From: a phage
Strand: one strand, 5' to 3'
DNA length: 64,000 nt
Sequence record: PZ445431.1
Under the pieces are notes generated by a model that saw only the letters and a list, made by a program, of their open reading frames with translations, was not told the DNA's origin and searched no databases. Both the position numbers and the translations under genes were made by a program. Each line of letters starts with the position of its first letter. The stretch's first letter is position 1. Below are positions 27,689-63,518 of this stretch, piece by piece.

Positions 27689-27706
27689 CCAAATTAAAAA
27701 GAATGC

Positions 27707-46895: not shown

Positions 46896-47060
46896 ATGGA
46901 AACATTACTTCTTGTACTACTAGGCGGTTCACTCTTAACCATTCTAGGCTTGATAATTATATGTAGTCGCCTCAATGTTAAGAATCTAGAATTAGATAGT
47001 GAGAATCAGATTCTTAACCGAGAAATTAAACAACATAATACACAGCTCGTAAGCTGTTAG
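46896..47060 (+). CDS. possible small membrane-anchored protein (54 aa)
   Basis: ATG then hydrophobic N-terminus; not in track. Confidence 0.3.
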   Translation: METLLLVLLGGSLLTILGLIIICSRLNVKNLELDSENQILNREIKQHNTQLVSC

Positions 47061-47079
47061 ATAAACTGGAGAATAGATA

Positions 47080-47993: not shown

Positions 47994-48715
47994 GTATAAA
48001 AAAGAATTTAGCAGAGATTATTAAGTTAGCTAGAGCTTGTAATGGAAAGAATGTTTCCGAACTTAATGAGTTAGAAGCTCATGCAGTAGCATTTTGTGCA
48101 GAGTTTTATCCAGCATATATTAATGCTAGTGGGCAACCTAAATATAATAAAGATGCAGAAGAAGTCACATTAGCCCCTTCATACATTAGCTTACGTCGTC
48201 TAATTCAAACTATTGATCCGACTATTAAAGGATTCTCAGCGGATTCATTCCATGTGTTTGCAGATGTAGAACTTCCACATTTTAAGGAAGCAAATGCAAA
48301 GTCAGCATTAGAATGTTATCCAAATATTTTAATGGTTCCACAAAAGCAATGTAAATACGATCATCTTCCTAGACTTATTAAAAAGGTAGAACCTCCTTAT
48401 TCTTCCTTATCTGAATTAAAGCTAGGGATTGTATCTACTCTTACGCAAGTTCATCTAAGTTTAGTTGATGACAATGTTACTTCTAATCCTATTCTAGATG
48501 CCGCACATTATGAAATTCTACGTGACCCTGAGCAAGCTAGAAAAGTTGCAAAGTCAGTTAAGTTTGATATCTCAACAATTCTTGACATTGAACAAGAAAC
48601 GAGACCTAGAGGAAGTGTGGATTATTCTGCGCTTAATTCTGAAGCATCTTATTTAGCGACATTCCTTTTTATGGCATCGAAAGGAGTTATTCTAAAGGTT
48701 AACAAAGATGGATGA
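47990..48715 (+). CDS. hypothetical protein (241 aa)
   Basis: Coupled ORF. Confidence 0.55.
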   Translation: MSIKKNLAEIIKLARACNGKNVSELNELEAHAVAFCAEFYPAYINASGQPKYNKDAEEVTLAPSYISLRRLIQTIDPTIKGFSADSFHVFADVELPHFKEANAKSALECYPNILMVPQKQCKYDHLPRLIKKVEPPYSSLSELKLGIVSTLTQVHLSLVDDNVTSNPILDAAHYEILRDPEQARKVAKSVKFDISTILDIEQETRPRGSVDYSALNSEASYLATFLFMASKGVILKVNKDG

Positions 48716-49436
48716 TTTACGTAGTGAAATTAATAAAAACCTAAGAGAGGAAGCCAGGAGGTTTCCTCTCAAAAACTTTTTAAAGTCAAACGGTTCTACT
48801 AATATTACAAAGATTAGGCAGCTTCATCCAGACTTCCAACAAGAGGCATTAAATCTTATCTTTATTAAGAAAGCATTGAAAGTCCAAAAGGAAGAGTATG
48901 GGTATGAAAGAGTTAACTATAAAACAGCTACTCAATTAGTAGAGATTTGGTGTTACAAACATCAAGGCTATTTTATGCAAACAGCTAGATCCCATCTAGA
49001 AGGGCACGGTTGTTTACAATGTGCTAGAGAAAGCAATCTCAATACACCTATCGAGAAACCGGAAATAGATGAGGATGTTCAGTTTCCCACCTATCTCTAT
49101 ATCTTCTCTAATAAGGATCAGTCTAGGAAGAAATTAAAGACGAAGATTGGAGTTTCTAGAGAGCCACATCAAAGGTTTAAGAATCTAGAATATGATAAAC
49201 TGCGTGTGCCGGGTTTCGAAGATATGGAAGTATTTGGTATATATCAGTATAAGAAAGGATCTAAAGAACTTGCTTATAAAATGGAACATCAAGCACATAA
49301 ATTTTTCGAGAGCAGATTTGCTAATCATTATAAATTCGATGGAGCAAAAGAGATATTCAACGTTAAGGCTGTGGAGGCAGAAGAATATTTATTAAGTCAA
49401 GGATGCATAAAAATTTACCCAACTCCAAACTCATGA
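48708..49436 (+). CDS. putative GIY-YIG/T5orf172-like endonuclease with His/Cys zinc-binding module (paralogue of 46168..46686)
   Basis: N-terminal block shared with 46168 (HPDFQQEALNLIFI, QTARSHLEGHGCLQCA) plus C-terminal YLYIFSNKDQSRKKLKTKIGVSREPHQRFKNL GIY-YIG-like segment. Confidence 0.5.
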   Translation: MDDLRSEINKNLREEARRFPLKNFLKSNGSTNITKIRQLHPDFQQEALNLIFIKKALKVQKEEYGYERVNYKTATQLVEIWCYKHQGYFMQTARSHLEGHGCLQCARESNLNTPIEKPEIDEDVQFPTYLYIFSNKDQSRKKLKTKIGVSREPHQRFKNLEYDKLRVPGFEDMEVFGIYQYKKGSKELAYKMEHQAHKFFESRFANHYKFDGAKEIFNVKAVEAEEYLLSQGCIKIYPTPNS

Positions 49437-49463
49437 TAAAAATTTAAAAGTAACGAAATCTGC

Positions 49464-49493
49464 TTGACATTCGTGAGAATAATGTGTTATAAT
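49464..49493 (+). promoter_or_regulatory. near-consensus sigma70 promoter (TTGACA-N17/18-TATAAT) with no ORF downstream
   Basis: TTGACA at 49464-49469, TTATAAT at 49487-49493; differs from the TTGCTT early promoter class. Confidence 0.5.
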
Positions 49494-49779
49494 AATCTCA
49501 TAGATTAAAAACATCAACTTGTTTTTACCTCTAGGCCGTAGATTTACATCATTCCTCGTAGGAAAACACTTGATGACGGTTCTGCTTGCAGGTTCTCGTC
49601 AATTGTTCTTCCTCCCCGAGACTCAGGAGGATGTATCAAATCGCGCGCGCCTAGAGGGGCTAACTCTCATGAAATGGGGGTATATTAACTTTTAAATAAC
49701 TAAAAATATTTAAAGGCAATATTTATGTTCAAGATGATACACCTGTTGCCGCTCATCTGCTAGGATGGCACAACACTTT

Positions 49780-49960
49780 CTTCTAGGCTCCTAAGTTTCT
49801 AGGAATAGTTAAGCACTAACTCTAGAGTTTACACTAAACTTTAAATCTGTTTCTCACACATTCTAGGGCAGTTTCTCTCCAACGTTACATATCCTAGGGC
49901 GGTTTCCTATACAGGGCGGTTATAGGGAGGGCGGTTATTTCTAGGAGACATTTTTTGAAA
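49780..49960. repeat. short direct repeats (TTTCTAGG x4-5, GGGCGGTT x3)
   Basis: CTTCTAGG, TTTCTAGG, CTAGGGCGGTT, CAGGGCGGTT, GGGAGGGCGGTT read directly. Confidence 0.8.
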
Positions 49961-49979
49961 ACACATTTCTGGAAATTAC

Positions 49980-50580
49980 TGTCGGATTTGCACATTACAT
50001 TTCTAGAAATTTATGGTCGGATTTGCACATTGATAGGAGTCTCCAAAGTTTTTAGGAACACTGAAAATAGCAGCATTATTTCGGGCCGAAGGCCCATATT
50101 TGCCTGAGTTTTTAGAGCCACAGGAATTTTCACTTGTCAAGCGATTTTGCCCCATTTTGCTAATAAAATTTCGCTTTATCTCCCCTAATCTCAATTCTAG
50201 CCAAAACATCCCGCATTATCCTCAAAAATGCAGCAAACCGGTGCTAAAGCACCATCACCGCTGCTCCTTCCGTAGTTCCTCCCAAAATCTCATCGGATTC
50301 GCACTTCTCCCCAAACTCACACAATCACACACCCTCTCATCGAAGTCACAAAAATCTTGTCGGATTTGCACACCTTAACACTTGTCGGATTTGCACATAC
50401 TCTAGTAAACCCAGCTGGATTGCATCGCAGTTGCGGATTGCTGGAGTTTTTAGGAAAATTCATTGTCGGATTTGCACACTATAAAAATTTTTCGGGTAGG
50501 ATTTGCACATTACCAAAAATTGTCGGATTCGCACATACACGCCAGCACGTAACCCATGGAGCAAATGTCGGATTTGCACA
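49980..50580. repeat. iteron array: about 9 direct copies of TGTCGGATTTGCACA (minor variants)
   Basis: Copies at about 49980, 50016, 50291, 50359, 50383, 50464, 50496, 50521, 50566, all same orientation, irregular spacing. Confidence 0.9.
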
Positions 50581-50599
50581 AAAGCGCAGGGCAATTTGC

Positions 50600-50755
50600 C
50601 CTGCCTGCCGAAATGCGAATGATAATGAGAATGATTCGCATTTGAGAAGTTGAATGCGAATGAGAACAGTTATCATTTGACTACCGGAATACGAATGAGA
50701 ATGATTTGCATTTAGGAAGGGAAACGCTAATAATAATGAGAATGACTCGCATTTA
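50600..50755. repeat. second iteron family AATGAGAATGA(T/C)T(C/T)GCATTT (3 full copies plus partial), each embedding short AATGCGAAT/ATTCGCATT inverted motifs
   Basis: Copies at about 50621, 50693, 50733 plus GCGAATGAGAACAG at 50664. Confidence 0.85.
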
Positions 50756-50786
50756 CAAAGCGAAGTGAGAAACACTGTTATTTAAG

Positions 50787-50856
50787 TTATCCACAGGTTT
50801 ATTAACAGCACGATCTGACTTGACAAAATCCTAGTGATTTTGAGGCGTTATCCACA
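50787..50856 (+). promoter_or_regulatory. two perfect DnaA boxes (TTATCCACA) in direct orientation
   Basis: TTATCCACA at 50787-50795 and 50848-50856. Confidence 0.8.
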
Positions 50857-50894
50857 GACTTATCAACAGGTTATTCTACTGTATATTTATACAG
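50848..50894. repeat. left arm of about 47 bp inverted repeat (partner 54593-54639)
   Basis: TTATCCACAGACTTATCAACAGGTTATTCTACTGTATATTTATACAG versus reverse complement of 54593-54639, about 90% identical. Confidence 0.8.
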
Positions 50895-50926
50895 TATTCC
50901 TGCGTAGTGAATAACTCTAATATAGC

Positions 50927-50957
50927 TCTAAAACGCTCTCAAACGCGTTCTAACGCG
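50927..50957. repeat. direct repeat copy 1 (TCTAAAACGCTCTCAAACGCGTTCTAACGCG); partner at 55019-55050
   Basis: Same orientation, about 27/31 matches to 55019-55050. Confidence 0.8.
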
Positions 50958-51041
50958 TTTATTTTTGGGGGAGGTATTTTAATAAGGGGAAATTTGAGGA
51001 AGGCCAGAAAAGACGGGGCCGATAGTTGCGCCCCGTTATTA

Positions 51042-51236
51042 TTAGTCTGGTAGTCGATGTGTGATCTTTTCGCTTTCGCCGTAGGAGTCTACCAAATGTT
51101 GATAGTAACCATCGTTATCATAAATCACTTTATCATAATCGCCACGCTCCACCGCTTGCCGATTTTCCAGCGTATCAGGCACAAAGAAAGTATCAACGGT
51201 AACAGTAGTTTTAGTTACAACAATTTTATCACTCAT
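51042..51236 (-). CDS. hypothetical protein (64 aa), pre-early-region leftward operon
   Basis: ORF in leftward gene string. Confidence 0.45.
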   Translation of the reverse strand: MSDKIVVTKTTVTVDTFFVPDTLENRQAVERGDYDKVIYDNDGYYQHLVDSYGESEKITHRLPD

Positions 51237-51366
51237 AACGCCATTGCTCCTAGAATGAGAATGATTATCAATATCATTGTGAAGCCATTACCAAATCGTA
51301 AACGCTGGGAATGTTTCCCAGCGGTATTATTAGATTTATGGCTTTGTGTTTTTCGCCACCAGCTAT

Positions 51367-51579
51367 TCACGGTTTTAAATTCTCTATAGTTAATTTTGCG
51401 CGAATAGTGATTCCATATAATTCGCCTCCCTTGTTTCTTACATCAGGTAGCCAGTCCCACAATTCATGGTATCCGCTTAAAATTCCTAGCGATGCAAGAT
51501 TAGCAATAAAACCGGCTATAGTAACCGCTTCCAGTGAAATAGTTACACGATTATTAATAACTAAAGTAAACTTTTTCAT
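51367..51579 (-). CDS. hypothetical protein (70 aa)
   Basis: ATGA-coupled to upstream gene. Confidence 0.5.
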   Translation of the reverse strand: MKKFTLVINNRVTISLEAVTIAGFIANLASLGILSGYHELWDWLPDVRNKGGELYGITIRAKLTIENLKP

Positions 51580-51920
51580 TGCGCCACCTTTCGAAACGCT
51601 GTTTCGATACTTTCAGCGGTTGATTGAATATACGCGCCTTTCATAATTAGACGCTCCGTACATACTTTGCGGAAAATGAAAATGAATTCATTTTCATTTT
51701 CCGCTATTAACGCTTCCCCCATAACCTGAACGTCACAAGACCCAAAAGTTAAAAATTGAAACGCTAGTTCACGGGCGACAACGGCAGAAATTTTATAATG
51801 TGCTTTGCCCTCATAGATATTAACCACGCCTTTATAAACAGGGGAAAGCTGATTTAAATAGTTTGCTAATAATGCCGGACGGCAATTAGTTACAAAGCGA
51901 TTGCCCTCATAAATAACCAT
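51576..51920 (-). CDS. hypothetical protein (114 aa)
   Basis: ORF in leftward gene string. Confidence 0.55.
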   Translation of the reverse strand: MVIYEGNRFVTNCRPALLANYLNQLSPVYKGVVNIYEGKAHYKISAVVARELAFQFLTFGSCDVQVMGEALIAENENEFIFIFRKVCTERLIMKGAYIQSTAESIETAFRKVAQ

Positions 51921-52026
51921 TAAATGATCCTCGCATCACGGATAACCATAATCACTAGCGTGATCAACATTGCAGCACTAGACACGCCACAAACAAAAGT
52001 TAGCATTTTAACAATTGCCCCTTCCA

Positions 52027-52239
52027 TTATAACACCCCACGAAAAGCAGCGTAAAAAGTAGCAAAGTGTTTAACCGTTTCGGCTATCAAATTGCCGCGCT
52101 TGTCAAATTTCTTTTCTGTAACACGGAAAGCGTTTTTGTTGCGTGCTACATATTCTATTTTACAATCTGGACGCTCGAAGGTGTTAACATCCACCAGCTT
52201 AAAACCTTTAGAACGGGCAAGGGAAACATTTTTTAACAT
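52027..52239 (-). CDS. hypothetical basic protein (70 aa)
   Basis: ORF in leftward gene string. Confidence 0.5.
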   Translation of the reverse strand: MLKNVSLARSKGFKLVDVNTFERPDCKIEYVARNKNAFRVTEKKFDKRGNLIAETVKHFATFYAAFRGVL

Positions 52240-52245
52240 TTTTAT

Positions 52246-52395
52246 TCCCCTTTACCAGTCATACAGCCCAACAAGTAAGAAAACCCCGCGATACCTGCTC
52301 CAATAATAACCACGTGAACGCCGAAAGCTATTACAAACAGCGATAAAATAGCGCCCAAGATACTAGCCAGAATAGATCGAAAAATAACCATTTTA
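52246..52395 (-). CDS. possible small membrane protein (49 aa)
   Basis: Minus-strand ATG at 52395 followed by two hydrophobic segments; not in track. Confidence 0.35.
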
Positions 52396-52437
52396 TTAGC
52401 TCCTAGAAATTAGGGGATAATATATCCCCTTTAATAA

Positions 52438-52665
52438 TTACATTAAAACAATTTTTACCGCTTGCTTTTTGGTGCAGTGGTTAGTTTTCAATTCATCCAA
52501 CAAAAAGCCCGCCGTTTGCTGGTCAATCTTGTCATTGTCATAAAGTTCCTGAATGGTAACATAAGTTTTACCTATGCCGAACTCAGAAACCATAACGCTG
52601 ACAATAGCGGGAACGGATACCCATTCCATACCGTTAAAAATTGCAGAAGATGATGAATGTACCAT
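52438..52665 (-). CDS. hypothetical protein (75 aa)
   Basis: ORF in leftward gene string. Confidence 0.5.
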   Translation of the reverse strand: MVHSSSSAIFNGMEWVSVPAIVSVMVSEFGIGKTYVTIQELYDNDKIDQQTAGFLLDELKTNHCTKKQAVKIVLM

Positions 52666-52772
52666 TTTAACGCCTCCTAGAAATCAGGGAAAATTTTCAA
52701 TCCACCGTTTCGGTGTAAAGGCATTATAACAAAAAAGGCCACCATAATAGGCGACCTTTACAAAACTTTACA

Positions 52773-53294
52773 TTAGACTATTTCTAATGCTTCCACACCG
52801 AAACAGCGTTTTAGTTCTTTCTGTAAAACTGCATATTCATCCCAACGGGAATTATCAGGAATATAAACAAGCTGTTTTAATCGATTTGCATATAATAACG
52901 CCTTGTTACCAATTATTTCCGCGCCACCGTGTTTAATAATTAGTTTCATAACGGTATTAATAGGATCGCCGCCATTTACATAAGTACCGGACTTACTCAA
53001 TTGATAATGATAAATACTCGCATATACATTATCATTTTCAATCCATTCCCCTGTTTCTTCATCTTCTTCCCCATCGCTACCGAAACGAGAAGCATTATCA
53101 TATGCGTGTTCGTTTGCGAAAGCGTCCAGATCACAGCCAGCGGGAACAAAATGTTCCTCCGTCCAGCCCTCCCCGCAATAGCCAGTATGACAATCAACTA
53201 AAACGATCATATCGTGCTTAGCTTCATTCACACTTTCTAGTGAAAATCCATACTTGCAAACACTATCACGCTCAATAATTAATTTACTAAACAT
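52773..53294 (-). CDS. hypothetical acidic protein (173 aa)
   Basis: Cys/His cluster (CHTGYCGEGW...GC) followed by strongly acidic tract GSDGEEDEETGEWIEND. Confidence 0.6.
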   Translation of the reverse strand: MFSKLIIERDSVCKYGFSLESVNEAKHDMIVLVDCHTGYCGEGWTEEHFVPAGCDLDAFANEHAYDNASRFGSDGEEDEETGEWIENDNVYASIYHYQLSKSGTYVNGGDPINTVMKLIIKHGGAEIIGNKALLYANRLKQLVYIPDNSRWDEYAVLQKELKRCFGVEALEIV

Positions 53295-53347
53295 AATTAG
53301 TCTCCTAACTAAAAGGGAAAGCGGGGATTATTCCCCACTAGTAATTA

Positions 53348-54343
53348 TTATTCACTTTCGGTGTTAGTGGTAAAGGTAGAAATGTCAATACCTTTTACCA
53401 TTTCGTCGATCATTTCAGCAATATTGAAACTCTGTACCATTTCCAACATTGCCGCTTCCATTGCCGCGCCTGCTACCGCTTTCGCTTTCTGATTAGTCGG
53501 GGCGTACTGGTCAACTGCTACGCTTAACAGGTTAGCGATCACTATACGACCAATCGGCGTATCGATATAACCTTTAATCATAAACGGCGCTTTTTTCGCC
53601 GCTACTTTCGTGATTTGAGTTAATGCAATTTTACCCGCTTCCAGTTTTGCAGCATTTACAACAGCGGATTTATTAGCAGCAACGATAGAAGATACTTTAG
53701 TCATGATATTTCCTTTATTTTCAGTAGTTTGCGCATTTGCGCTTGAAGTTTGAGAGTTTACAGCCTGTTTTGCTACGTTGTCAACTGGTTTTAGTGTAAA
53801 TCCAGCGTTTGCAACGTTTGATTCATTCCCATACTCTAAATAATCGTTAGGGATCAACATGTTACCGCTAGCGCGTTCAAAACACAATACGCCAGTTGTT
53901 TCGATTGCGTCACTATCCGCACGTTTAATGGCGCTTGTCAATTCGCCCCAAATGCTAGACAGTAAATCTTCTACATCTCTGGAATTAATACCATTTACGC
54001 GAGTAGCGAAAACCATTTCTTTTTCTTGTACATTGTAACCACGGGCAATATAGCTTTTTTCGTCGTGACCTACAATGATAAAATCAATATCGCTTCCCCG
54101 CTGATTTCGTATGATGTGATAGTCACGGTTGTAAAGCACTAGAACGCGGCTAGGGTCTAGTAATAGCGTGAAATCATCGACTGAATAATGAGTATCATTA
54201 TTATCTAAAATATCATCGTGAATCTTTTCAACCATTGCCACCGTATGTTGTAGGCTTGCTGGACTTGATCCGTCTAGCAGGTTGCGCAAAATACCCTTAA
54301 TAATAGTGGCGTTTGCTGGTACTGCAATTCTTACAGTAGACAT
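53348..54343 (-). CDS. hypothetical protein (331 aa), first gene of leftward pre-early operon
   Basis: Longest ORF of the block; GGAGAC RBS; Ala/Lys-rich C-terminal half. Confidence 0.6.
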   Translation of the reverse strand: MSTVRIAVPANATIIKGILRNLLDGSSPASLQHTVAMVEKIHDDILDNNDTHYSVDDFTLLLDPSRVLVLYNRDYHIIRNQRGSDIDFIIVGHDEKSYIARGYNVQEKEMVFATRVNGINSRDVEDLLSSIWGELTSAIKRADSDAIETTGVLCFERASGNMLIPNDYLEYGNESNVANAGFTLKPVDNVAKQAVNSQTSSANAQTTENKGNIMTKVSSIVAANKSAVVNAAKLEAGKIALTQITKVAAKKAPFMIKGYIDTPIGRIVIANLLSVAVDQYAPTNQKAKAVAGAAMEAAMLEMVQSFNIAEMIDEMVKGIDISTFTTNTESE

Positions 54344-54592
54344 TTCTTTGTCTCCCTCGTTAATCGGTGAGTGAATGATATAGATAATTGTTCGCTATGG
54401 GCAAGAAAAAAGAAAAGGTTTTTTATTCCTTGCCTAACGCTTGTTTTTATGATACCCGCGTGTTTTCTATTTCTAGCTCTCTGTAAGCGTACACAAGGCT
54501 TTATTATAATAAGGGTAGCAGTGAGAAAACGCCGTGTAGCGTGTTCTAGACCTCTTAAATTTGATTGCGGTTGTTACTGCTACCATTCTACC

Positions 54593-54639
54593 CTGTATAT
54601 TTATACAGTAGGATAACCTGTATATAAGTCTGTGGATAA
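54593..54639. repeat. right arm of about 47 bp inverted repeat (partner 50848-50894), containing a DnaA box
   Basis: CTGTATATTTATACAGTAGGATAACCTGTATATAAGTCTGTGGATAA. Confidence 0.8.
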
Positions 54640-54688
54640 GTCGCCAAATCGTCGCCTATTACGTCAAGTTATTTTGTGCTGTGGATAA
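54631..54688 (-). promoter_or_regulatory. two perfect DnaA boxes (TGTGGATAA on + strand = TTATCCACA on - strand)
   Basis: TGTGGATAA at 54631-54639 and 54680-54688; partial boxes at about 54611 and 54965. Confidence 0.8.
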
Positions 54689-55018
54689 CTTTGGGGATAA
54701 GTTAAATGATAGTGGTTCTCACTTAGCCCGATAGTTTCTCATAGTTATTATTTCTCTTTAATTTATAAGTATATTATATAATATGAAATAGTTAGTTGGC
54801 TAATAGGTTTTTAGAGTATTAATAGTCTGCTAATAATAACGCATGTTACAATCCACCAGCGTGATTATCATCCTAGCGACTATTAGCGTGCTAATGACCT
54901 GATACACGTCCAGACTTATTTGTCAATGAAAAATAATAGCAGAAAATACTTTTTTGAAAAATCAAGTGGATAACTCATTAAATTTCATTTTTGCTTTTTG
55001 TATAAGTTATTAACAGGG

Positions 55019-55050
55019 TCTAAAACGCTCTGTAACGCATTCTAAGCGCC
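55019..55050. repeat. direct repeat copy 2 (TCTAAAACGCTCTGTAACGCATTCTAAGCGCC)
   Basis: Matches 50927-50957 in the same orientation. Confidence 0.8.
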
Positions 55051-55351
55051 TCAAAGGAAAAGATAGGCAATCATAAGGAGTACACCGAGAAAACCTCACC
55101 ACTAGCGAAATAAGTTTTGTCAAGTACCCCAAAGCAGATATAAATGAAAAAATTACTTGCTAAAATGGTTGTTTTGATGTTATTCGCGCGCCCGTTTCAT
55201 TTAATTTTAGGCAGTCGCTGGACGTGGTGCGGTGGCGTTTGTCCTTACGTTTCTTTACAAAAATAAGGTTGCGCCCTTCTCGGTATTCTCCTATTATTTA
55301 TCACGTAGGGCGGCAATGACGAACTACACGGCGGAGAAGTTTACCACCGCG

Positions 55352-55388
55352 CTCTTTAAAAACTAGGGAACATCTTAAAGCCTATCGG
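55352..55388. repeat. left arm of 37 bp near-perfect inverted repeat
   Basis: CTCTTTAAAAACTAGGGAACATCTTAAAGCCTATCGG; reverse complement matches 55795-55831 at 36/37. Confidence 0.9.
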
Positions 55389-55421
55389 CGGTAAACTTAT
55401 ATAATATAAGGAATCGACGAT

Positions 55422-55580
55422 ATGACAACAATATTTAACGATCATCCAGCTACCCACGACACGATCGAAAAAATCGAACAATGGGTAAAGACTGCAAATG
55501 AATACTATGCTAATCATTCGGAAGCGGTAATAATCTGCAATGATGGGAATGGTTTATATGCTTTGGAGGATCTCAAATGA
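55422..55580 (+). CDS. hypothetical small protein (52 aa) inside the IR-flanked cassette
   Basis: ATG after TATATAATATAAGGAATCGACGAT; ATGA-coupled to the next ORF; not in track. Confidence 0.45.
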   Translation: MTTIFNDHPATHDTIEKIEQWVKTANEYYANHSEAVIICNDGNGLYALEDLK

Positions 55581-55786
55581 AACAAACGCTTTTGATCACT
55601 GGCAAGCCTATCAAGTCACTTGATAGCAGAACAAAAAATTTGTTGATAGTAGCGCAAAAATCGGTAAAATACCGATTCAAGCAGTACAAGAAAGGAAGGC
55701 AGCAAGGTCTGGAAATGGTGTGGCGTAATATAATGATTGATTTATATAACTCCCATCAAATCGAAAAAAGTTTAAAAAACGCTTGA
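55577..55786 (+). CDS. hypothetical basic protein (69 aa) inside the IR-flanked cassette
   Basis: ORF track; Lys/Arg-rich. Confidence 0.5.
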   Translation: MKQTLLITGKPIKSLDSRTKNLLIVAQKSVKYRFKQYKKGRQQGLEMVWRNIMIDLYNSHQIEKSLKNA

Positions 55787-55794
55787 TACGCTAG

Positions 55795-55831
55795 CCGATA
55801 GGTTTTAAGATGTTCCCTAGTTTTTAAAGAG
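55795..55831. repeat. right arm of 37 bp near-perfect inverted repeat
   Basis: CCGATAGGTTTTAAGATGTTCCCTAGTTTTTAAAGAG. Confidence 0.9.
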
Positions 55832-56017
55832 CGATAACTTGATAAAATTTGACGGTCGGCACTTACCATAATGTGCCCCGCCCCCTAACTGGGATATAGC
55901 GGCCCGCGTGGAGTTCTTTAAATTTATTATACTGGCGAGCGGATTATAATCTAATAGCGTTTCAACGTATCGAGGCGCTATTGTGGAATAATCCCCCAAT
56001 AAACCGGAGTATTAAAA

Positions 56018-56269
56018 ATGCAAAACGTTATTACCGCGCCGAAAGTAGGTCAATCTGTTTTCATTCCTTTTGTAACTAAAACGGATGAATTAACCGGAAA
56101 AGCCGAACGTATTAAAGGTGTGGCGCTTGATCCTTTCGATAAAATCGAAGCGGTATACGCGGAAACGGAACGGAGTAACAACGGCAAGCCAATTTATAAC
56201 GTTCGCGTTAAATCCGGCGACGTTGTAAAGATCATTCAGAAAGATGATAAATGGCAAGCTATTAGCTAA
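56018..56269 (+). CDS. hypothetical protein (83 aa)
   Basis: ORF with GGAG RBS. Confidence 0.55.
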   Translation: MQNVITAPKVGQSVFIPFVTKTDELTGKAERIKGVALDPFDKIEAVYAETERSNNGKPIYNVRVKSGDVVKIIQKDDKWQAIS

Positions 56270-56368
56270 TTAGTGCTAACTTTATATTCCCCTGAAATAT
56301 GGGGAATATATGGATTAACATTAGTTAATCATAATCCCTTAATTAATAATTGAATGGAGTATTAAATT

Positions 56369-56785
56369 ATGTCTAACGTTAAAACCGAAAAAGCCGCAAA
56401 ATTCGCATGGAATGAAGAAAACACTGAAAAAGCCGTTTCTATGTATTCTGAAATGGTCGCTAAAAGCGGAATTGAATTTGCTAACACTGACGGCTTAAAA
56501 GAAATCGCCGCCGCCGTTGGCGCGGCTTCTCCCGTGTCTGTTCGCTCAAAATTGACCAGCGCAAAAGCCTACCAGAAAAGCGATAAACCTCGCAAAGTTG
56601 GCGGTGGTAGCTCAATCCGTAAAGCTCACTATGTGCGCGTCATTGCTAAACATGCCATTGATAGCGGCATTGTAAAAGACGCCGACGATCTGGCAAGTCT
56701 GGAAAGCGCAAAATTGGAAACGCTGGACGCCGTAGCGCAATTGTTAGGCGTAGCGGAGGAAGTAAAACAGGCCGCAGGCGAATAA
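56369..56785 (+). CDS. hypothetical protein (138 aa)
   Basis: ORF with GGAG RBS. Confidence 0.55.
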   Translation: MSNVKTEKAAKFAWNEENTEKAVSMYSEMVAKSGIEFANTDGLKEIAAAVGAASPVSVRSKLTSAKAYQKSDKPRKVGGGSSIRKAHYVRVIAKHAIDSGIVKDADDLASLESAKLETLDAVAQLLGVAEEVKQAAGE

Positions 56786-56834
56786 ATTTAATCAGTGGGG
56801 AATAATCCCCACTATCCCTTAAAGGAGAATAATT

Positions 56835-57059
56835 TTGATCTTTTATCCTAGCGAAGCGTTTATTTTGGGCTTATTTATAGTTGCCGCCGCTTTTATTCTG
56901 AATTATACGCGGTCAATTCTGGCAATAATCGGAATTAATAACGTTTACGCCGCAAATAATTTCCGCAAAAACGCGAATATTCAAAAATATATGTCAATCA
57001 TCTTTCTTACAATTGGCATTGTATTTGGCTTTTGTTCTAGTTTAACGCCGATTAATTAA
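56835..57059 (+). CDS. hypothetical membrane protein (74 aa)
   Basis: Two hydrophobic helices; AAGGAGAA RBS. Confidence 0.5.
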   Translation: MIFYPSEAFILGLFIVAAAFILNYTRSILAIIGINNVYAANNFRKNANIQKYMSIIFLTIGIVFGFCSSLTPIN

Positions 57060-57171
57060 ATGTTGCAAATTATAACGCCTTTAAAAGTCCTCACTTCAGG
57101 CAAGGCGTTATATTTGGCAATATTGCCAGCTTTAAAATGTTTTAAATCCCTTTAATGGAGTTACTTAACTT

Positions 57172-58836
57172 ATGAATATTTCCGCAGAAAAACAGTCTCA
57201 GATCAATAAACTTGCCGCCGACTTTAATTTCTACGGTAAGCGTTTACGCGCTACCAAACTTGAAGTTTGCGACGATATTTCAAAAGCTGTATATGATACG
57301 CCGAAACATTCAACGGCAATTTGTGACTGGTTGGAAGCAAATAAGCCAGCGAAACCGAAGGCAGCGAAAGCTGTAAAAGCCATTAAAAACGATGATCGCC
57401 CCGAAGCGGCGGGGATCGTTTCTAGCACGGTTGAGCAATGGGAAGTTAAATCCGGTCGCCGTTTTATTCTAACGTCGATTCAAAATAATACTTTCCCGCA
57501 CAAAAACTTTTTGAAAGCGCTTGAGCAATACGCTAGTTATTATGGCGCTGAATTGCTTGTTAGCAAATTCATTTACAACAAAAACGGATTTCAGAATGGG
57601 GAAGGCGGCGAAAAAATCAAATATGATCCCGCATTTGATAAATATATTTGTGAGAAAAACGTATTTTTAAATAATCGCCGCTTTGCTTTCATGGCTGAAA
57701 TTAACGTATTACCAACGGCAGATTATCCGCTTTCAGGATTCGCAGAAACTGCCACCGCTTTAAATATTGAAGGTCTGGCAATTGGTCACGCAAAAATTAC
57801 CGCTGAAAGTGTGCCAGCGTTAAAAGGTGAAGTAGTGCGCCGTATGTACTCCACCGGAACGGCTACGCTTAAAAACTACATTCAGCAGAAAGCAGGTCAA
57901 AAAGCTGAGGCGCTGCATAATTACGGCGCTTTGCTGGTAGAATTTGACGACGACGGCGAATTTTTTGTTCGCCAGCTTGAGACAATGGATGAAAGCGGGA
58001 TGTTTTATGATTTGAATATTTGCGCTATACCAACCGGATGTTTCAAAACATCTGATCATGTTTTAGGTTTGCAATATGGCGATATTCACGCCGAAAAATT
58101 AGATGATGATTGCGCTGTTGCATCATGGGTGGGCGAAAATAGCTTGCTTGATATTCTTAAACCAAAATATCAGTTTATCCATGATGTGCATGATTTTACA
58201 TCGCGTAACCATCATAATCGCGCCTCTGGTGTATTCCTAGCTAAACAGTACGCCGCCGGACGTGATAAAGTTATTGATGATCTTATCGATACTGGACGTG
58301 TATTAGAATCAATGGAGCGCGATTTTTCTCAAACAATCATCGTGGAATCCAATCATGATTTGGCGTTATCCCGTTGGCTTGACGATCGCAACGCTAATAT
58401 TAAAGACGATCCCGCAAACGCCGAACTGTATCACAGCCTAAACGCCGCTATTTATGCAGCTATTGCAAAACAAGATGATACCTTTAACGTATTGGATTAC
58501 GCGCTTAGAAACGTTGCAGGTTGCGAATTTAACGCTATTTTTCTGACTACTGACCAATCTTTCAAGATTGCAGGAATTGAATGCGGCGTACACGGTCACA
58601 ATGGCATTAACGGCAGTCGGGGCAATCCTAAGCAGTTTAAGAAACTTGGACGCCTCAACACTGGCCATACTCACACGGCGAGCATTTACGGTGGCGTGTA
58701 TACCGCTGGCGTTGCTGGTAGTCTCGATATGGGTTACAACGTGGGCGCGTCAAGCTGGACGCAAACGCATTTAATTACCTATGCAAACGGGCAACGTACT
58801 TTGATTGATTTCAAAAACGGTAAATTCTTTGCATAG
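57172..58836 (+). CDS. A1: A1-like pre-early protein (metallophosphoesterase-type)
   Basis: 554 aa with GDIHAE, ESNHD, GVHGHNG, NTGHTHT phosphoesterase-like motifs; size and position next to a dmp-like gene match T5 A1. Confidence 0.6.
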   Translation: MNISAEKQSQINKLAADFNFYGKRLRATKLEVCDDISKAVYDTPKHSTAICDWLEANKPAKPKAAKAVKAIKNDDRPEAAGIVSSTVEQWEVKSGRRFILTSIQNNTFPHKNFLKALEQYASYYGAELLVSKFIYNKNGFQNGEGGEKIKYDPAFDKYICEKNVFLNNRRFAFMAEINVLPTADYPLSGFAETATALNIEGLAIGHAKITAESVPALKGEVVRRMYSTGTATLKNYIQQKAGQKAEALHNYGALLVEFDDDGEFFVRQLETMDESGMFYDLNICAIPTGCFKTSDHVLGLQYGDIHAEKLDDDCAVASWVGENSLLDILKPKYQFIHDVHDFTSRNHHNRASGVFLAKQYAAGRDKVIDDLIDTGRVLESMERDFSQTIIVESNHDLALSRWLDDRNANIKDDPANAELYHSLNAAIYAAIAKQDDTFNVLDYALRNVAGCEFNAIFLTTDQSFKIAGIECGVHGHNGINGSRGNPKQFKKLGRLNTGHTHTASIYGGVYTAGVAGSLDMGYNVGASSWTQTHLITYANGQRTLIDFKNGKFFA

Positions 58837-58888
58837 TTAAATTTAATCGGCGGTTGAAATATACCGCCATTAATAAAAGGTTTATTAA

Positions 58889-59146
58889 ATGAATATTGTA
58901 TTACCTAAAACGCTGGATAAAAAGCAGTATATAACGCCGGATGATATGGAGTGCGGCAAGGTATACCAATTCGATTATATGTTGGCTAGTCCGACAAATA
59001 CAGGTTGTATTATTGCAGTTGATACCCGCGATAATGACGTATTAACGTTTAATGATTATTCTGACTTTATGGAATGGTTAGATGATCAAAGTATCACTAA
59101 TAATGGCGAATTAACGCCCTATCAATTAACGCTCACAATTAAATAG
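58889..59146 (+). CDS. hypothetical acidic protein (85 aa)
   Basis: ORF track. Confidence 0.5.
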   Translation: MNIVLPKTLDKKQYITPDDMECGKVYQFDYMLASPTNTGCIIAVDTRDNDVLTFNDYSDFMEWLDDQSITNNGELTPYQLTLTIK

Positions 59147-59184
59147 TTTAATCCCGTAAATATAAATAATCAGGAGTTATAAAC

Positions 59185-59577
59185 ATGAAACAACAAAATA
59201 TTCCTTTTGACGCTGCAAAATCTTCCATCGTTCTAGTTTATTCTAATGGTGAACGTTATCACGTCGAGGCGGGGCAAGTTAATTTTGATTTGCTGAATTA
59301 TAACGACGCTTTGCAGGTTACTACCTTTGCTTATGATACCGGCAAAGTGGCAAGCCATACGAAAGCAAAAGGCGTTTACGCTGATACTTTGACAGTGCAA
59401 ACAATTATTATTGATGCGCTTAAATCCGGTCTAGCGTTTGCAGTTGTTAAGCCGTGTCCGGTCTGCAATCCAGAAGCTAGCGCGATGGTTTACATTTGCG
59501 CGGGAATCCGTTCTAGTGTATCCGGTGAAGATCTTAGCTTTATTGGTGACGCGCTAGCGTACGGCCTCACTAATTAA
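59185..59577 (+). CDS. hypothetical pre-early protein (130 aa), possible A2 counterpart
   Basis: Position downstream of A1 and size; no motif-level support. Confidence 0.3.
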   Translation: MKQQNIPFDAAKSSIVLVYSNGERYHVEAGQVNFDLLNYNDALQVTTFAYDTGKVASHTKAKGVYADTLTVQTIIIDALKSGLAFAVVKPCPVCNPEASAMVYICAGIRSSVSGEDLSFIGDALAYGLTN

Positions 59578-59665
59578 TAGTTAATTGAACATTGCCAGCT
59601 AATCTAATATAATTAGCTGGCAAGATTGAATTAACCCTAAACCCCTTAAATGGAGAATGTAGCAA

Positions 59666-60400
59666 ATGAATCAAGTTAATATGAATATTACCCGCGCTTT
59701 CCCGCATATTTCCCGCGTTATGATTTGGGATTTAGACGGGACAATCATTAATTCAATGCACCGTGTAGCGCCTTGTTTTGATGATAACGGAAATTTAAAT
59801 TTAAATAAGTATTCCCGCGAAGCCTGCAAACATGATTTAATTATGCAGGATTCTTTATTGCCGTTGGTTGAATATATGCGCCAATGTATGAATGATGCAA
59901 ATACTTTAAATATTATTTGTACCGCGCGCCTTATGTCTAAAAGCGATTACTTTTATTTGCGTAAACAAGGCTTGCGAGGGCGCGGAAATAGCAATATCCG
60001 CGTATTCTCCCGCGATACATTACACAAATACTTTGAAGCGGATAAGGTTAGCGAAATATACCACAGCAAAGACGCTGTATACAAAAGCTATTACTTTGAA
60101 CTATTTAAACAGCTATATCCGAACGCTGATTTTACGATGATTGATGATCATAAAGGCGTATTATCGGCGGCGGCAAGTGCTGGATTTAAAACGTTGGATG
60201 CTCAAGCCGTTAACGATATCCTATCAATCGGCGTAACATTGATCGGTGAAACCTTTATTGATGAATCGCTTGATGATGATAACGATTATCAATTCCTAGC
60301 CGAACGTTTAAAAATGTGTTGGGAAGGTATGACCGAGGAAGAACGCGCGGAATATAGTACCACTCCGCAACAATTCATTGATAAATTAAAAGTTGCCTAA
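59666..60400 (+). CDS. dmp: 5'-deoxyribonucleotidase (HAD-superfamily phosphatase), Dmp-like
   Basis: 244 aa with HAD motif I MIWDLDGTIIN; size and position match T5 dmp. Confidence 0.65.
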   Translation: MNQVNMNITRAFPHISRVMIWDLDGTIINSMHRVAPCFDDNGNLNLNKYSREACKHDLIMQDSLLPLVEYMRQCMNDANTLNIICTARLMSKSDYFYLRKQGLRGRGNSNIRVFSRDTLHKYFEADKVSEIYHSKDAVYKSYYFELFKQLYPNADFTMIDDHKGVLSAAASAGFKTLDAQAVNDILSIGVTLIGETFIDESLDDDNDYQFLAERLKMCWEGMTEEERAEYSTTPQQFIDKLKVA

Positions 60401-60415
60401 CAATTAAAAATAAAA

Positions 60416-60450
60416 TAGTCACACTGTGTAATGATAACATGGTGTGACTA
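60416..60450 (+). other. strong hairpin (9 bp stem) immediately after the dmp-like gene
   Basis: TAGTCACAC ... GTGTGACTA with 17 nt loop; no T tract. Confidence 0.5.
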
Positions 60451-60563
60451 TTAGCTTGCTAAGTACCGGGGCGGTAATGAGACTCATTCTCATCTAGGGA
60501 ACCTCTGGGCACACCTTCATGTGTAATCTTATGAGATTTCGAGAATTGGTAATTAGCGCTAAC

Positions 60564-60809
60564 TTAGGAGGAACACCGGTCTACCGGCTTGTATCCTGAT
60601 TCTGACATACGAAATCTCCTCCGCGATGCCCGAGATCCATCCGACCACTCTCGCTCAAACTCCTCCCGTTTCTCCGCAAACTTCCGCTCCCTTTCCGAAA
60701 GCTCCCGCGATACTCCCGCAATATATTCACGATGCTTATTAATCGCCCCGAGTGTTCCGAAGATTCCCGCAAGCACCCCGATAATGAAGATAGCCACAAA
60801 ACTAAACAT
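60564..60809 (-). CDS. hypothetical membrane-anchored protein (81 aa)
   Basis: N-terminal TM helix then Arg/Glu-rich tail. Confidence 0.45.
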   Translation of the reverse strand: MFSFVAIFIIGVLAGIFGTLGAINKHREYIAGVSRELSERERKFAEKREEFEREWSDGSRASRRRFRMSESGYKPVDRCSS

Positions 60810-60912
60810 TACTTGTCTCCCCGCAGCTTACGTTCGATACGAGCTAAGTGGTTATCTAAGATGCACTGTCCGATAATTACCACAACTAGTAAAGCAATAA
60901 TTACTACTTCCA

Positions 60913-61098
60913 TTATAACCACCCCGCCATAGCTGCTAACCAAAAGAGTACAAAGATAAAGAATAACACAGTCCCGAATCCGAAACTATTTATCCAACTT
61001 TCGTACACTTCCCCGCGTCTGTTCTTTCTTCTGTTGTCGTCTGACATCTCTTTGCTTCTCCTGTAGTCTTGGTATTTGGAATACCCTAGCAATTGCAC
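60913..61098 (-). CDS. hypothetical tail-anchored membrane protein (61 aa)
   Basis: C-terminal TM helix; overlapping alternative ORF 60986..61177 not chosen. Confidence 0.35.
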   Translation of the reverse strand: MQLLGYSKYQDYRRSKEMSDDNRRKNRRGEVYESWINSFGFGTVLFFIFVLFWLAAMAGWL

Positions 61099-61376
61099 GA
61101 ACCATTATGACTGTCCCGATAAGATCCATTACTTCATCAAAGCCGGATTCTTCTAGTAAGAAGGATGTTCCCATCACGTCTTCTATTGTATCTTCTATGA
61201 CGTCTTGAATGATTTCATCAATTGCATCATGTATTGCTTTTTATTCCTGGGATTTATTTCAAAGTTAACAGGTTCCTGAAAGGACTTTTCTTCATCTTGC
61301 ATTGTGTTTGCTACCTGTACCTCATCCCAGAAATAAAAATTTTTGTTTACTTCGAGATCTTTTTACTTTATACTAA

Positions 61377-61643
61377 TTACAAGTGACCAGATTGTTCTAG
61401 TTTAAATTTGCAATCACCATATTTGAGATCAAACTGTGACAAATCCCACCACCCAAACTTAGTGCGTAACTGAGTTTTAGGGAATCGGTAGCCCACAGTA
61501 CGTGCTTCTCGAATATCTAAAGCGTAGTGTTCTTCACCAACATGACCATAAGACTTCACATATGCCTTACAAAATGGCTCGGGAGCTGGCACACAACCCG
61601 TCAACACTACTGCTGCAACTACGATGGCTAGTAACTTTTTCAT
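61377..61643 (-). CDS. llp: lipoprotein, lytic-conversion (Llp-like) candidate
   Basis: Signal peptide with lipobox MKKLLAIVVAAVVLTGC; divergently adjacent to the pb5-like gene, as llp/oad in T5. Confidence 0.65.
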   Translation of the reverse strand: MKKLLAIVVAAVVLTGCVPAPEPFCKAYVKSYGHVGEEHYALDIREARTVGYRFPKTQLRTKFGWWDLSQFDLKYGDCKFKLEQSGHL

Positions 61644-61726
61644 AATCGTTCCTCTGTTTAATTTATAAATATATTATAGCAAAATAGAGGGATCTAAGCA
61701 AATACATTTTTAAAGAAGGAGATTGT

Positions 61727-63508: not shown

Positions 63509-63518
63509 AGGAGGATAT

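What the first reader, a model, noticed from the sequence alone, without database searches (positions are those of the whole stretch)
49441..61350. Pre-early (first-step-transfer / terminal-repeat-like) block sitting between early and late genes
About 11.9 kb with visibly different composition (GC-richer, dense iterons, bidirectional gene strings) separates the rightward early genes from the llp/pb5/terminase-like genes. It carries dmp-like (HAD phosphatase, 244 aa) and A1-like (554 aa metallophosphoesterase) genes, which in T5 lie in the 10 kb terminal repeat injected first. The layout fits a T5-like genome assembled with one repeat copy and reverse-complemented. Most other proteins in the block have no recognisable motif and are prime host-takeover or anti-defence candidates.
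Basis: partly seen in the sequence, partly recalled or inferred. Interest (0 to 1): 0.6.

Follow-up and report, generated by a model that had tools for sequence, protein, structure and literature searches.

The report
T5-type terminal repeat, pre-early genes

Summary
The window is Escherichia phage TrudiRoth (Bas30, MZ501109.1, Epseptimavirus), 100% identical over the block. Window 49441-61350 is colinear, in reverse complement, with the left terminal repeat of phage T5. A1, Dmp and A2 are 89, 91 and 86% identical to the T5 proteins, and gene order matches.

The BASEL paper says these genomes were assembled as circles, opened at the small terminase gene, and hold one repeat copy. That explains why the repeat appears to sit between early and late genes.

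Ends recorded for T5, EscoHU1 and Seafire map the repeat proper to about 50115-60510, or 10.4 kb. On the right it adds about 840 bp holding small membrane-protein ORFs that lie outside the repeat in T5.

The repeats are real: eight GTCGGATTTGCACA copies, four 35-41 nt repeats and eight DnaA-type boxes. They match the published T5 injection-stop region. The "GC-richer" claim is not supported (0.398 against 0.393).

A1 has a metallophosphoesterase fold. Dmp shows the HAD motifs only.

Verdict: interpretation supported, already known, low interest.

One unannotated item: a consensus promoter followed by a positionally conserved long hairpin at 49464-49690.

The parts
49464..49493 (+). Consensus sigma-70 promoter (TTGACA, 18 nt spacer, TATAAT, with TG extended -10). 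It lies in unique DNA just after the last early gene and points towards the repeat.
   Evidence: It scores 12 of 12 in the scan. The -10 element TGTTATAAT is kept in saus132, Seafire and EscoHU1, and T5 has TATCAT. It was also found in 35 fetched T5-like loci. It is not annotated in MZ501109.
49500..49690 (+). Long imperfect hairpin or palindrome (about 130 nt, 49528-49657), flanked by a small 5' hairpin and a small 3' hairpin. It is either a candidate structured RNA or a DNA-level palindrome. It lies outside the repeat.
   Evidence: MFE is -66.8 kcal/mol, z = -4.85. Eight sequence types from 35 loci keep the same layout although the apical part is replaced by unrelated sequence. There is no Rfam match. 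The strand test is inconclusive.
49729..49785 (.). Non-coding block of about 55 nt, nearly invariant between T5 and Epseptimavirus phages.
   Evidence: Alignment. Its first 37 bases served as the search pattern that retrieved 24 loci.
49981..50580 (+). Eight direct copies of GTCGGATTTGCACA, probably the DRD repeats of T5 Repeat Region 3. Two copies lie outside the repeat border and six inside.
   Evidence: The repeat series is described for T5 in bioRxiv 10.1101/866236; I made the match to DRD from position and copy number, not from the published sequence.
50115..60510 (.). Terminal repeat proper (about 10.4 kb), present once in this assembly. The outer physical end is at 60510/60511 and the inner end at 50115.
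   Evidence: T5 position 10219 and EscoHU1 position 9914 both map to 50115. Position 1 of Seafire and of EscoHU1 both map to 60510. The T5 right genome end aligns up to 50115, while the left-repeat copy of T5 aligns on into unique DNA. The flanks of both borders are conserved with T5.
50184..51050 (.). Region homologous to the annotated T5 injection stop signal (T5 9140-10149). It includes the position homologous to the T5 major single-strand nick (50583/50584).
   Evidence: Coordinate mapping. T5 annotation.
50610..50771 (+). Four direct repeats of 35-41 nt (AATGAGAATGATTCGCATTT core).
50787..50868 (+). Two pairs of DnaA-type boxes, each pair 3 bp apart: TTATCCACA-ggt-TTATTAACA and TTATCCACA-gac-TTATCAACA. 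Together they form one arm of the long inverted repeat.
   Evidence: inverted repeat I1. The same layout is described in bioRxiv 10.1101/866236.
51042..51236 (-). 64 aa homolog of T5.017 (80% identical), not annotated in the GenBank record.
   Evidence: phrog_6973; one search shows no CDS there.
51233..52665 (-). String of small pre-early ORFs: bas30_0181, 0182, 0183 (T5.015 homolog, 89%), 0184, 0185 (T5.014 homolog, 94%), 0186 (T5.013 homolog, two-TM type) and 0187 (T5.012 homolog).
52773..53294 (-). 173 aa protein with no T5 homolog (phrog_6741, function unknown).
   Evidence: No Pfam or NCBIfam match.
53348..54343 (-). 331 aa homolog of T5.011 (57% identical; DUF7566). T5.011 is toxic to E. 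coli when expressed alone.
   Evidence: Toxicity is reported in PMC8201957 and bioRxiv 10.64898/2026.04.02.716235.
54344..55231 (.). Non-coding region between the divergent pre-early gene strings. It holds the second set of four DnaA-type boxes (54619-54639 and 54680-54700, minus strand), which form the other arm of the inverted repeat.
   Evidence: (I1, I10). T5 has mapped promoters in the equivalent region.
55232..56269 (+). Small pre-early ORFs: bas30_0190, 0191, 0192 (homolog of T5.008/Hdi, 77%) and 0193 (homolog of T5.007, DUF7177, 78%).
56369..56785 (+). A2, a DNA-binding protein needed for second-step transfer in T5 (86% identical).
   Evidence: phrog_1725.
56835..57059 (+). 74 aa membrane protein, homolog of T5.005 (34% identical).
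   Evidence: phrog_4820.
57172..58836 (+). A1, 554 aa, with a metallophosphoesterase-fold C-terminal domain (89% identical to T5 A1).
58889..59577 (+). bas30_0197 (85 aa, no detectable T5.003 similarity) and bas30_0198 (130 aa, T5.002 homolog, 72%).
59666..60400 (+). Dmp, the deoxynucleoside 5'-monophosphatase, 244 aa (91% identical to T5 Dmp). It carries HAD-type motifs.
60511..61350 (-). Unique DNA outside the repeat, with five small ORFs (bas30_0200-0204). Three of them are homologs of T5.162, T5.160 and T5.159.

Best explanation
Window 50115-60510 is the one assembled copy of the long direct terminal repeat of the T5-like phage TrudiRoth. In the virion it should sit at both ends of the linear DNA. 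It appears internal only because the genome was assembled as a circle and opened at the small terminase gene.

By orthology with T5, the mechanism would run as follows.
1. The end at 60510 enters the cell first.
2. Transfer pauses after about 8% of the genome, at the non-coding injection-stop region (about 50.2-51.05 kb). That region carries the direct repeats and the DnaA-type boxes.
3. Host RNA polymerase transcribes the two divergent pre-early gene strings from the central intergenic region.
4. A1, a metallophosphoesterase-fold protein, drives host DNA breakdown and, with the DNA-binding protein A2, allows the rest of the genome to enter.
5. Dmp converts the released dNMPs to nucleosides.
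6. Small accessory proteins (homologs of Hdi, T5.015, 011 and 013) disturb division, DNA and membranes.

What is shown here: the homology, the gene content, the repeat anatomy and the A1 fold. What is inferred from T5: the two-step transfer and the protein functions.
For: - The block is 100% identical to MZ501109.1.
- It is colinear in reverse complement with T5 1-10219.
- A1, Dmp and A2 are 89, 91 and 86% identical to the T5 proteins, and 12 of the 17 T5 pre-early genes are found in T5 order.
- The inner border maps to the same base from T5 and from EscoHU1. The outer border maps to the same base from Seafire and from EscoHU1.
- The T5 right genome end aligns exactly up to 50115.
- Sequences flanking both borders are conserved between genera.
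- The BASEL paper states linearisation at the small terminase gene and a single repeat copy.
- The repeat and DnaA-box layout equals that published for 25 T5-like phages.
- Roles of the T5 genes come from the literature.
Against: - No reads or virion-end data are available, so terminal redundancy of this particular phage is inferred, not observed.
- Recorded repeat lengths of close relatives disagree. The inner end of Seafire maps to 50585 and that of saus132 to 50324, so the inner border could be up to about 470 bp further in.
- Pfam and NCBIfam do not recognise A1 or Dmp.
- The HAD assignment of Dmp rests on motifs only.
Confidence: 0.93

Rival explanations
1. The block is a genuine internal, non-redundant module in this phage, so TrudiRoth either lacks a long terminal repeat or has it elsewhere.
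For: The record and the window hold only one copy, and no read data could be examined.
Against: - All compared relatives with recorded ends place their repeat exactly on this segment.
- Sequences at both borders are conserved with T5.
- The source paper says the repeat is listed once by convention.
- In a survey of 25 T5-like phages, all carry dmp, A1 and A2 in the left terminal repeat.
Confidence: 0.03
2. The block is a horizontally acquired island of foreign composition inserted between early and late genes.
For: A few ORFs (bas30_0181, 0182, 0184, 0188) have no T5 homolog.
Against: - GC is 0.398 against 0.393, within the spread of other windows.
- Synteny with T5 is complete at both flanks.
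- The variable 51237-51575 segment occurs in 230 phage records, nearly all named as phages of Salmonella, Escherichia and related enterobacteria.
Confidence: 0.01
3. The repeats ('iterons') together with the DnaA boxes form a replication origin rather than an injection-stop or packaging region.
For: There are eight DnaA-type boxes in oriC-like pairs. Eight further GTCGGATTTGCACA repeats each contain a near-DnaA box, ATTTGCACA (read directly from the sequence; positions).
Against: - No replication-initiator family was found among the ORFs of the block.
- The published view is that T5 origins lie near the genome centre and that replication genes are not expressed while only this DNA is in the cell.
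- The region is homologous to the mapped T5 injection stop signal.
Confidence: 0.03

Closest known systems
Left/right terminal repeat of phage T5 (NC_005859.1, 1-10219), the first-step-transfer DNA with its pre-early genes
   Same: Same order and orientation of dmp, 002, A1, 005, A2, 007 and hdi on one strand, and of 011-015 and 017 on the other. Both have a central divergent intergenic region, a terminal non-coding injection-stop region with direct repeats, a DnaA-box inverted repeat, a conserved nick-site motif, and conserved sequences at both borders.
   Different: It lacks hegG (T5.010), T5.016 and detectable homologs of T5.003 and T5.009. It carries extra ORFs (173 aa phrog_6741; bas30_0181, 0182, 0184, 0190, 0191). 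DNA identity is only 70-84%. The neighbouring receptor-binding protein is 29% identical, and the exclusion lipoprotein showed no detectable similarity to T5 Llp.
Terminal repeats of Epseptimavirus phages EscoHU1 (9914 bp), Seafire (9592 bp, PhageTerm) and saus132 (8717 bp)
   Same: DNA identity is 86-95% across the block. The outer end maps to the same base in EscoHU1 and Seafire, and the EscoHU1 inner end equals the T5 inner end on the window.
   Different: Recorded inner ends differ. The Seafire end maps onto the position homologous to the T5 major nick (window 50584/50585), so it may be a nick call rather than a terminus. Gene content of the minus-strand string varies between these phages.
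Calcineurin-like metallophosphoesterase nucleases (Mre11/SbcD, PolD DP1 exonuclease), as a comparison for A1
   Different: There is no Pfam Metallophos match. A1 has a large N-terminal region of about 290 residues without assignment. Nuclease activity of purified A1 is still to be tested, according to the 2026 preprint.
Concatemer-junction promoter and hairpin of phages T7/T3, and 6S-type long-hairpin RNAs, as leads for the element at 49464-49690. Both are recalled from memory, not tested.
   Same: A promoter and a long self-complementary sequence lie next to a long direct terminal repeat (T7/T3). The size, about 190 nt, and the long-hairpin shape resemble 6S RNA.
   Different: There is no sequence or covariance-model similarity to any Rfam family, including 6S. 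There are no data on transcription or on packaging intermediates in T5-like phages. The element lies 425-615 bp from the repeat border.

Membership tests
T5-type long direct terminal repeat carrying the pre-early (first-step-transfer) genes | The same sequence is present at both physical ends of virion DNA | not testable with these tools
   The assembly holds only one copy. The BASEL paper says the repeat is listed once. No reads are available.
T5-type long direct terminal repeat carrying the pre-early (first-step-transfer) genes | Colinear homology to the T5 terminal repeat, with borders matching relatives whose ends were determined | tested here: met
   The T5 and EscoHU1 inner ends map to 50115, the Seafire and EscoHU1 outer ends map to 60510, and the T5 right genome end aligns up to 50115.
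T5-type long direct terminal repeat carrying the pre-early (first-step-transfer) genes | dmp, A1 and A2 orthologs in that order from the outer end | tested here: met
   91, 89 and 86% amino-acid identity to T5, with the same order.
T5-type long direct terminal repeat carrying the pre-early (first-step-transfer) genes | A large non-coding injection-stop region at the inner end, with direct repeats and eight DnaA-type boxes in pairs split between two inverted-repeat arms | tested here: met
   compared with the description in bioRxiv 10.1101/866236.
T5-type long direct terminal repeat carrying the pre-early (first-step-transfer) genes | Two-step DNA transfer with a pause after about 8% of the genome | not testable with these tools
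   This is an experimental property, known for T5 and BF23.
Calcineurin-like metallophosphoesterase superfamily (A1) | Five metal-binding motifs: DxH, GDxxD, GNH[DE], H, GHxH | tested here: met
   G303-D304-H306, H337-D338-D341, N394-H395-D396, H474 and G498-H499-H501 are invariant in 32 homologs down to 42% identity.
Calcineurin-like metallophosphoesterase superfamily (A1) | Metallophosphoesterase fold | tested here: met
Calcineurin-like metallophosphoesterase superfamily (A1) | Match to the Pfam Metallophos profiles | tested here: not met
   No Pfam hit even at E-value 10. No NCBIfam hit. No PDB sequence hit.
HAD phosphatase superfamily (Dmp) | Motifs I-IV: DxDxT, a conserved T/S, a conserved K, and DD | tested here: met
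   D22, D24, T26, T86, K140, D160 and D161 are invariant in 22 homologs.
HAD phosphatase superfamily (Dmp) | Profile-level or fold-level similarity to HAD enzymes | tested here: inconclusive
   Pfam Hydrolase scores E 0.014, 16 bits, below the 26.4 cutoff. The profile against PDB gives HAD chains only at E 0.05-0.15, over motif I alone. The single-sequence model has pLDDT 37.5 and is unusable. PHROG 415 matches.
Iteron-type replication origin | Iterons next to a gene for their cognate initiator protein | tested here: not met
   No ORF of the block matches a replication-initiator family.
Any described RNA family (for the hairpin element 49500-49690) | Covariance-model match in Rfam 15 | tested here: not met
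   No match with E up to 1 in 47000-64000 on either strand.

The most novel reading that the evidence does not exclude
It consists of a consensus sigma-70 promoter (49464-49493) followed by a 95-150 nt hairpin whose apical part has been replaced several times by unrelated but still self-complementary sequence. It could be a structured RNA of about 190 nt made early in infection. It could instead be a DNA palindrome used when the neighbouring terminal repeat is cut and duplicated during packaging, by analogy with T7.
Probability: 0.35. Interest if true: 0.45.

Novelty: already known. Interest (0 to 1): 0.15.

Why it matters
For annotation, the result says three things:
- The block should be labelled as the terminal repeat and first-step-transfer region of a T5-like phage.
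- Its borders should be near 50115 and 60510.
- The virion genome is about 10.4 kb longer than the deposited 114,488 bp.

The biology (two-step DNA entry, A1-driven host DNA destruction) is important, but it has been studied in T5 for decades and was revisited in 2020-2026 papers, so this copy adds no new principle.

Small practical gains:
- One missed gene, the T5.017 homolog.
- A probably spurious CDS across the repeat border.
- A likely explanation for the discordant repeat length reported for Seafire: a nick called as a terminus.
- A testable unannotated promoter and hairpin element beside the repeat.

Tried and rejected
- **Composition as a signal.** GC of the block is not distinct.
- **Rfam scan.** No match in 47-64 kb at E up to 1.
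- **Pfam and NCBIfam for A1, Dmp and A2.** No significant hit. PDB sequence searches found nothing for A1 or Dmp.
- **Dmp fold.** The profile search against PDB was only marginal.
- **Column covariation for the hairpin.** The earlier 4-sequence result of 25 'compensatory' pairs is therefore not trusted.
- **RNA against DNA-level pairing.** Counts were 10 G.U and 7 A.C, p = 0.31, so there is no strand preference. My earlier reading of the G-U changes as RNA evidence is withdrawn.
- **Uniqueness of the hairpin.** It ranks 3rd of 5110 150-nt windows by folding energy, so it is notable but not singular.
- **'TrudiRoth-specific' segment 51237-51575.** It occurs in 230 phage records, so it is not specific.
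- **Literature on a T5 small RNA or promoter at this site.** Nothing was found. The Davison 2015 review is not held.
- **Technical failures.** Two script runs failed for file reasons, one timed out, and one used a wrong regular expression.

Full report
**Identity of the window**

The 11.9 kb block is 100% identical to Escherichia phage TrudiRoth (Bas30, MZ501109.1 / NC_105117.1). This is an Epseptimavirus (Demerecviridae, Markadamsvirinae) of 114,488 bp from the BASEL collection.

- Window 39001-63518 equals record 89971-114488.
- The last 482 bases of the window equal record 1-482. The window therefore runs across the arbitrary start of the record, which is the first base of the small terminase gene.
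- The record already names A1, A2 and a dNMP monophosphatase in the block.

**Observation check**

- Gene strings. A minus-strand string runs from 54343 down to 51042. A plus-strand string runs from 55232 to 60400. They are separated by a non-coding region of 0.9 kb.
- Direct repeats. GTCGGATTTGCACA occurs eight times at 49981-50580 with at most one mismatch. The two-mismatch search gave 12 matches in the whole window against 0.36 expected.
- Four repeats of 35-41 nt follow at 50610-50771.
- The DnaA-box consensus TTATCCACA occurs at 50787 and 50848 on the plus strand, and at 54631 and 54680 on the minus strand. The window total is five against 0.68 expected.
- Composition. This claim fails. 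GC is 0.398 in the block and 0.393 in the rest. Equally long windows elsewhere range from 0.381 to 0.402. Only GC skew changes sign, as expected where the coding strand changes.

**Homology to the T5 terminal repeat**

In reverse complement, the block aligns along its length with T5 positions 83-10615 at 70-84% identity.

Protein comparisons with T5:

| Window protein | T5 counterpart | Identity |
|---|---|---|
| A1 (554 aa) | A1 | 89% |
| Dmp (244 aa) | Dmp | 91% |
| A2 (138 aa) | A2 | 86% |
| bas30_0198 | T5.002 | 72% |
| bas30_0195 | T5.005 | 34% |
| bas30_0193 | T5.007 | 78% |
| bas30_0192 | T5.008 / Hdi | 77% |
| bas30_0189 | T5.011 | 57% |
| bas30_0187 | T5.012 | 69% |
| bas30_0186 | T5.013 | 62% |
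| bas30_0185 | T5.014 | 94% |
| bas30_0183 | T5.015 | 89% |

All of these lie in T5 order.

- A 64 aa ORF at 51042-51236 (minus) is 80% identical to T5.017. It is missing from the GenBank annotation.
- No homolog was detected for hegG, T5.003, T5.009 or T5.016.
- Several ORFs have no T5 counterpart: the 173 aa protein and bas30_0181, 0182, 0184, 0190 and 0191.
- The variable segment 51237-51575 is nevertheless common, occurring in 230 phage records.

**Why the repeat looks internal**

The BASEL paper states that assemblies were linearised at the small terminase gene. [quoted passage not shown]

In T5 the right end of the unique region reads pb5, llp, T5.159-162, then the right repeat. The left repeat is followed by early genes transcribed towards it. 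Joining the two ends through one repeat copy gives exactly the layout seen in the window.

**Borders**

The outer border:
- Position 1 of Seafire (repeat found with PhageTerm, PMC6813399) maps to window 60510.
- Position 1 of EscoHU1 maps to the same base.
- The T5 left end falls one base away. The unique flank CTCGAAATNTCATAAGATTACACATGAAGGTG is conserved between genera.

The inner border:
- The T5 repeat end (10219) and the EscoHU1 repeat end (9914) both map to window 50115.
- The T5 right genome end aligns up to exactly that base. The left-repeat copy aligns on into unique DNA as far as 49721.
- About 70 bp around this border are invariant in five phages.
- Seafire (maps to 50585) and saus132 (maps to 50324) record shorter repeats.
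- The Seafire position coincides with the site homologous to the T5 annotated major single-strand interruption (window 50583/50584). I suspect a nick was called as a terminus there.

The repeat proper is thus about 50115-60510, or 10.4 kb.

- The right margin, 60511-61350, holds five small ORFs. Three are homologs of T5.162, T5.160 and T5.159, which lie outside the repeat in T5.
- The annotated CDS bas30_0180 (50003-50155) straddles the border inside the repeats. It was not run against any family library. It is probably spurious.

**The 'iterons'**

The non-coding inner part of the repeat is homologous to the annotated T5 injection stop signal: T5 9140-10149 corresponds to window 51050-50184.

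Its anatomy matches the description for 25 T5-like phages in bioRxiv 10.1101/866236:
- a series of short direct repeats that overruns the repeat border into unique DNA;
- longer direct repeats;
- a long inverted repeat whose two arms are about 3.7 kb apart (50839-50894 and 54593-54648);
- eight DnaA-type boxes in four pairs, each pair 3 bp apart.

The four pairs are:
- 50787-50807: TTATCCACA and TTATTAACA
- 50848-50868: TTATCCACA and TTATCAACA
- 54619-54639: TTATATACA and TTATCCACA
- 54680-54700: TTATCCACA and TTATCCCCA

No replication-initiator family occurs in the block. The 'origin' reading therefore has no support here.

**The proteins**

*A1.*
- Pfam, NCBIfam and PDB sequence searches do not recognise A1.
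- Its family is large, with 947 clusters at E up to 1e-5.
- All five metallophosphoesterase motifs are invariant in an alignment of 32 sequences.
- An AlphaFold2 model built from that alignment has pLDDT 87.2 and pTM 0.79.
- This agrees with a 2026 preprint that calls A1 a predicted metallo-phosphatase. The preprint shows A1 to be necessary and sufficient for host DNA degradation in vivo (bioRxiv 10.64898/2026.04.02.716235).

*Dmp.*
- The four HAD motifs are invariant residues (D22, D24, T86, K140, D160, D161).
- Profile evidence is only marginal.
- My single-sequence model failed.

*The other proteins.*
- They match only families of unknown function: DUF7566, DUF7177 and PHROGs.
Hdi inhibits division, gene 015 encodes an Ung-dependent nickase, and 011 and 013 are toxic.

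**Mechanism**

By orthology with T5:
1. The DNA end at 60510 enters first.
2. Entry pauses at the injection-stop region.
3. Host polymerase expresses the two divergent pre-early strings.
4. A1 and A2 permit the second step of transfer, and A1 destroys host DNA.
5. Dmp dephosphorylates the released dNMPs.

None of these steps was or can be tested here. They rest on the T5 literature.

**An element the annotation lacks**

Just left of the repeat, in unique DNA, lies a 12-of-12 sigma-70 promoter with an extended -10 (49464-49493, plus strand). It is conserved from Epseptimavirus to T5.

The next 190 nt fold into three parts: a small hairpin, a long hairpin of about 130 nt, and a second small hairpin. 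MFE is -66.8 kcal/mol, z = -4.85.

I fetched further T5-like loci with conserved patterns.
- They gave 26 distinct sequences from 35 loci, which fall into eight types.
- Every type keeps this layout, although the apical 50-60 nt are replaced by unrelated, still self-complementary sequence.
- Seven representatives give plus-strand z-scores of -3.4 to -6.5.
- Within types, stems carry 3 double compensatory changes, 7 single changes that keep pairing and 7 that break it, over 864 paired positions. The 376 unpaired positions carry 17 changes.

The limits of this evidence:
- A sequence alignment across types yields no consensus structure.
- Counts of G.U against A.C show no strand preference (10 against 7, p = 0.31).
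- The hairpin ranks third, not first, among 5110 windows of the 64 kb.
- No Rfam family matches.
- I found no paper that mentions it.
- One relative annotates a 47 aa ORF over it, but that frame is not conserved between types.

I therefore report it as a candidate. It may be a structured early RNA, or a DNA palindrome with a role next to the repeat border.

**Verdict**

- The borders need trimming.
- The feature is already known in kind and already annotated in this very genome.
- Interest is low. The promoter and hairpin element is the only part that might repay an experiment.

Noticed in passing
window 49464-49690 (+): An unannotated consensus sigma-70 promoter is followed by a long hairpin that is conserved in position. 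The same layout appears in eight unalignable sequence types from 35 T5-like loci. There is no Rfam match, and RNA-level and DNA-level roles could not be told apart.
   Followed up: partly
window 49729-49785: A non-coding block of about 55 nt is nearly invariant between T5 and Epseptimavirus phages, in unique DNA about 330 bp outside the repeat border. Its function is unknown.
   Followed up: no
window 50583-50585; L007 (Seafire) 9592: The PhageTerm-derived repeat end of Seafire maps within one base of the site homologous to the T5 annotated major single-strand nick. That repeat may therefore be about 470 bp too short, with a nick called as a terminus.
   Followed up: partly
window 51042-51236 (-): A 64 aa ORF is 80% identical to T5.017 (phrog_6973) but is not annotated in MZ501109.1.
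   Followed up: yes
window 50003-50155 (-): The annotated CDS bas30_0180 lies inside the direct repeats and straddles the repeat border. It was not searched against any family library. It is probably not a gene.
   Followed up: partly
window 51576-51920 (-) and 52027-52239 (-); L004 8086-8644: RefSeq NC_005859 and PHROG 4227 attach 'endonuclease nicking abasic sites generated by Ung' to the 70 aa T5.014 protein. The papers that characterised the activity name gene T5.015, which is 114 aa in the record. This may be an annotation shift that has spread to relatives.
   Followed up: partly
window 25934-25990: The window lacks 979 bp of MZ501109.1. The missing stretch lies between two tRNA-Lys(CTT) copies that share at least 57 identical bases, and it contains a tRNA-Gly and three small CDS. 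The window is therefore not byte-identical to the record. This could be a repeat collapse or a deletion variant.
   Followed up: partly
window 27616-27691: ARAGORN reports a tRNA with a four-base anticodon loop call (tgca, type '???') where the record annotates tRNA-Ala (GCA).
   Followed up: no
window 12251-12425 (-): This is the most stable 150-nt fold in the whole window (-59.6 kcal/mol, GC 0.55). It was not examined further.
   Followed up: no
window about 19800-21550: The NMN adenylyltransferase and NMN transporter genes of Bas30 are the subject of a 2026 paper on a phage NAD+ reconstitution pathway (PMC13464706). They lie outside the finding.
   Followed up: no
A1 homologs P0072, P0075, P0080, P0117: Some distant A1-family proteins carry a precomputed N-terminal helix-turn-helix Pfam domain (PF04218 or PF13384). 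This hints that the unassigned N-terminal region of A1 may bind DNA.
   Followed up: no
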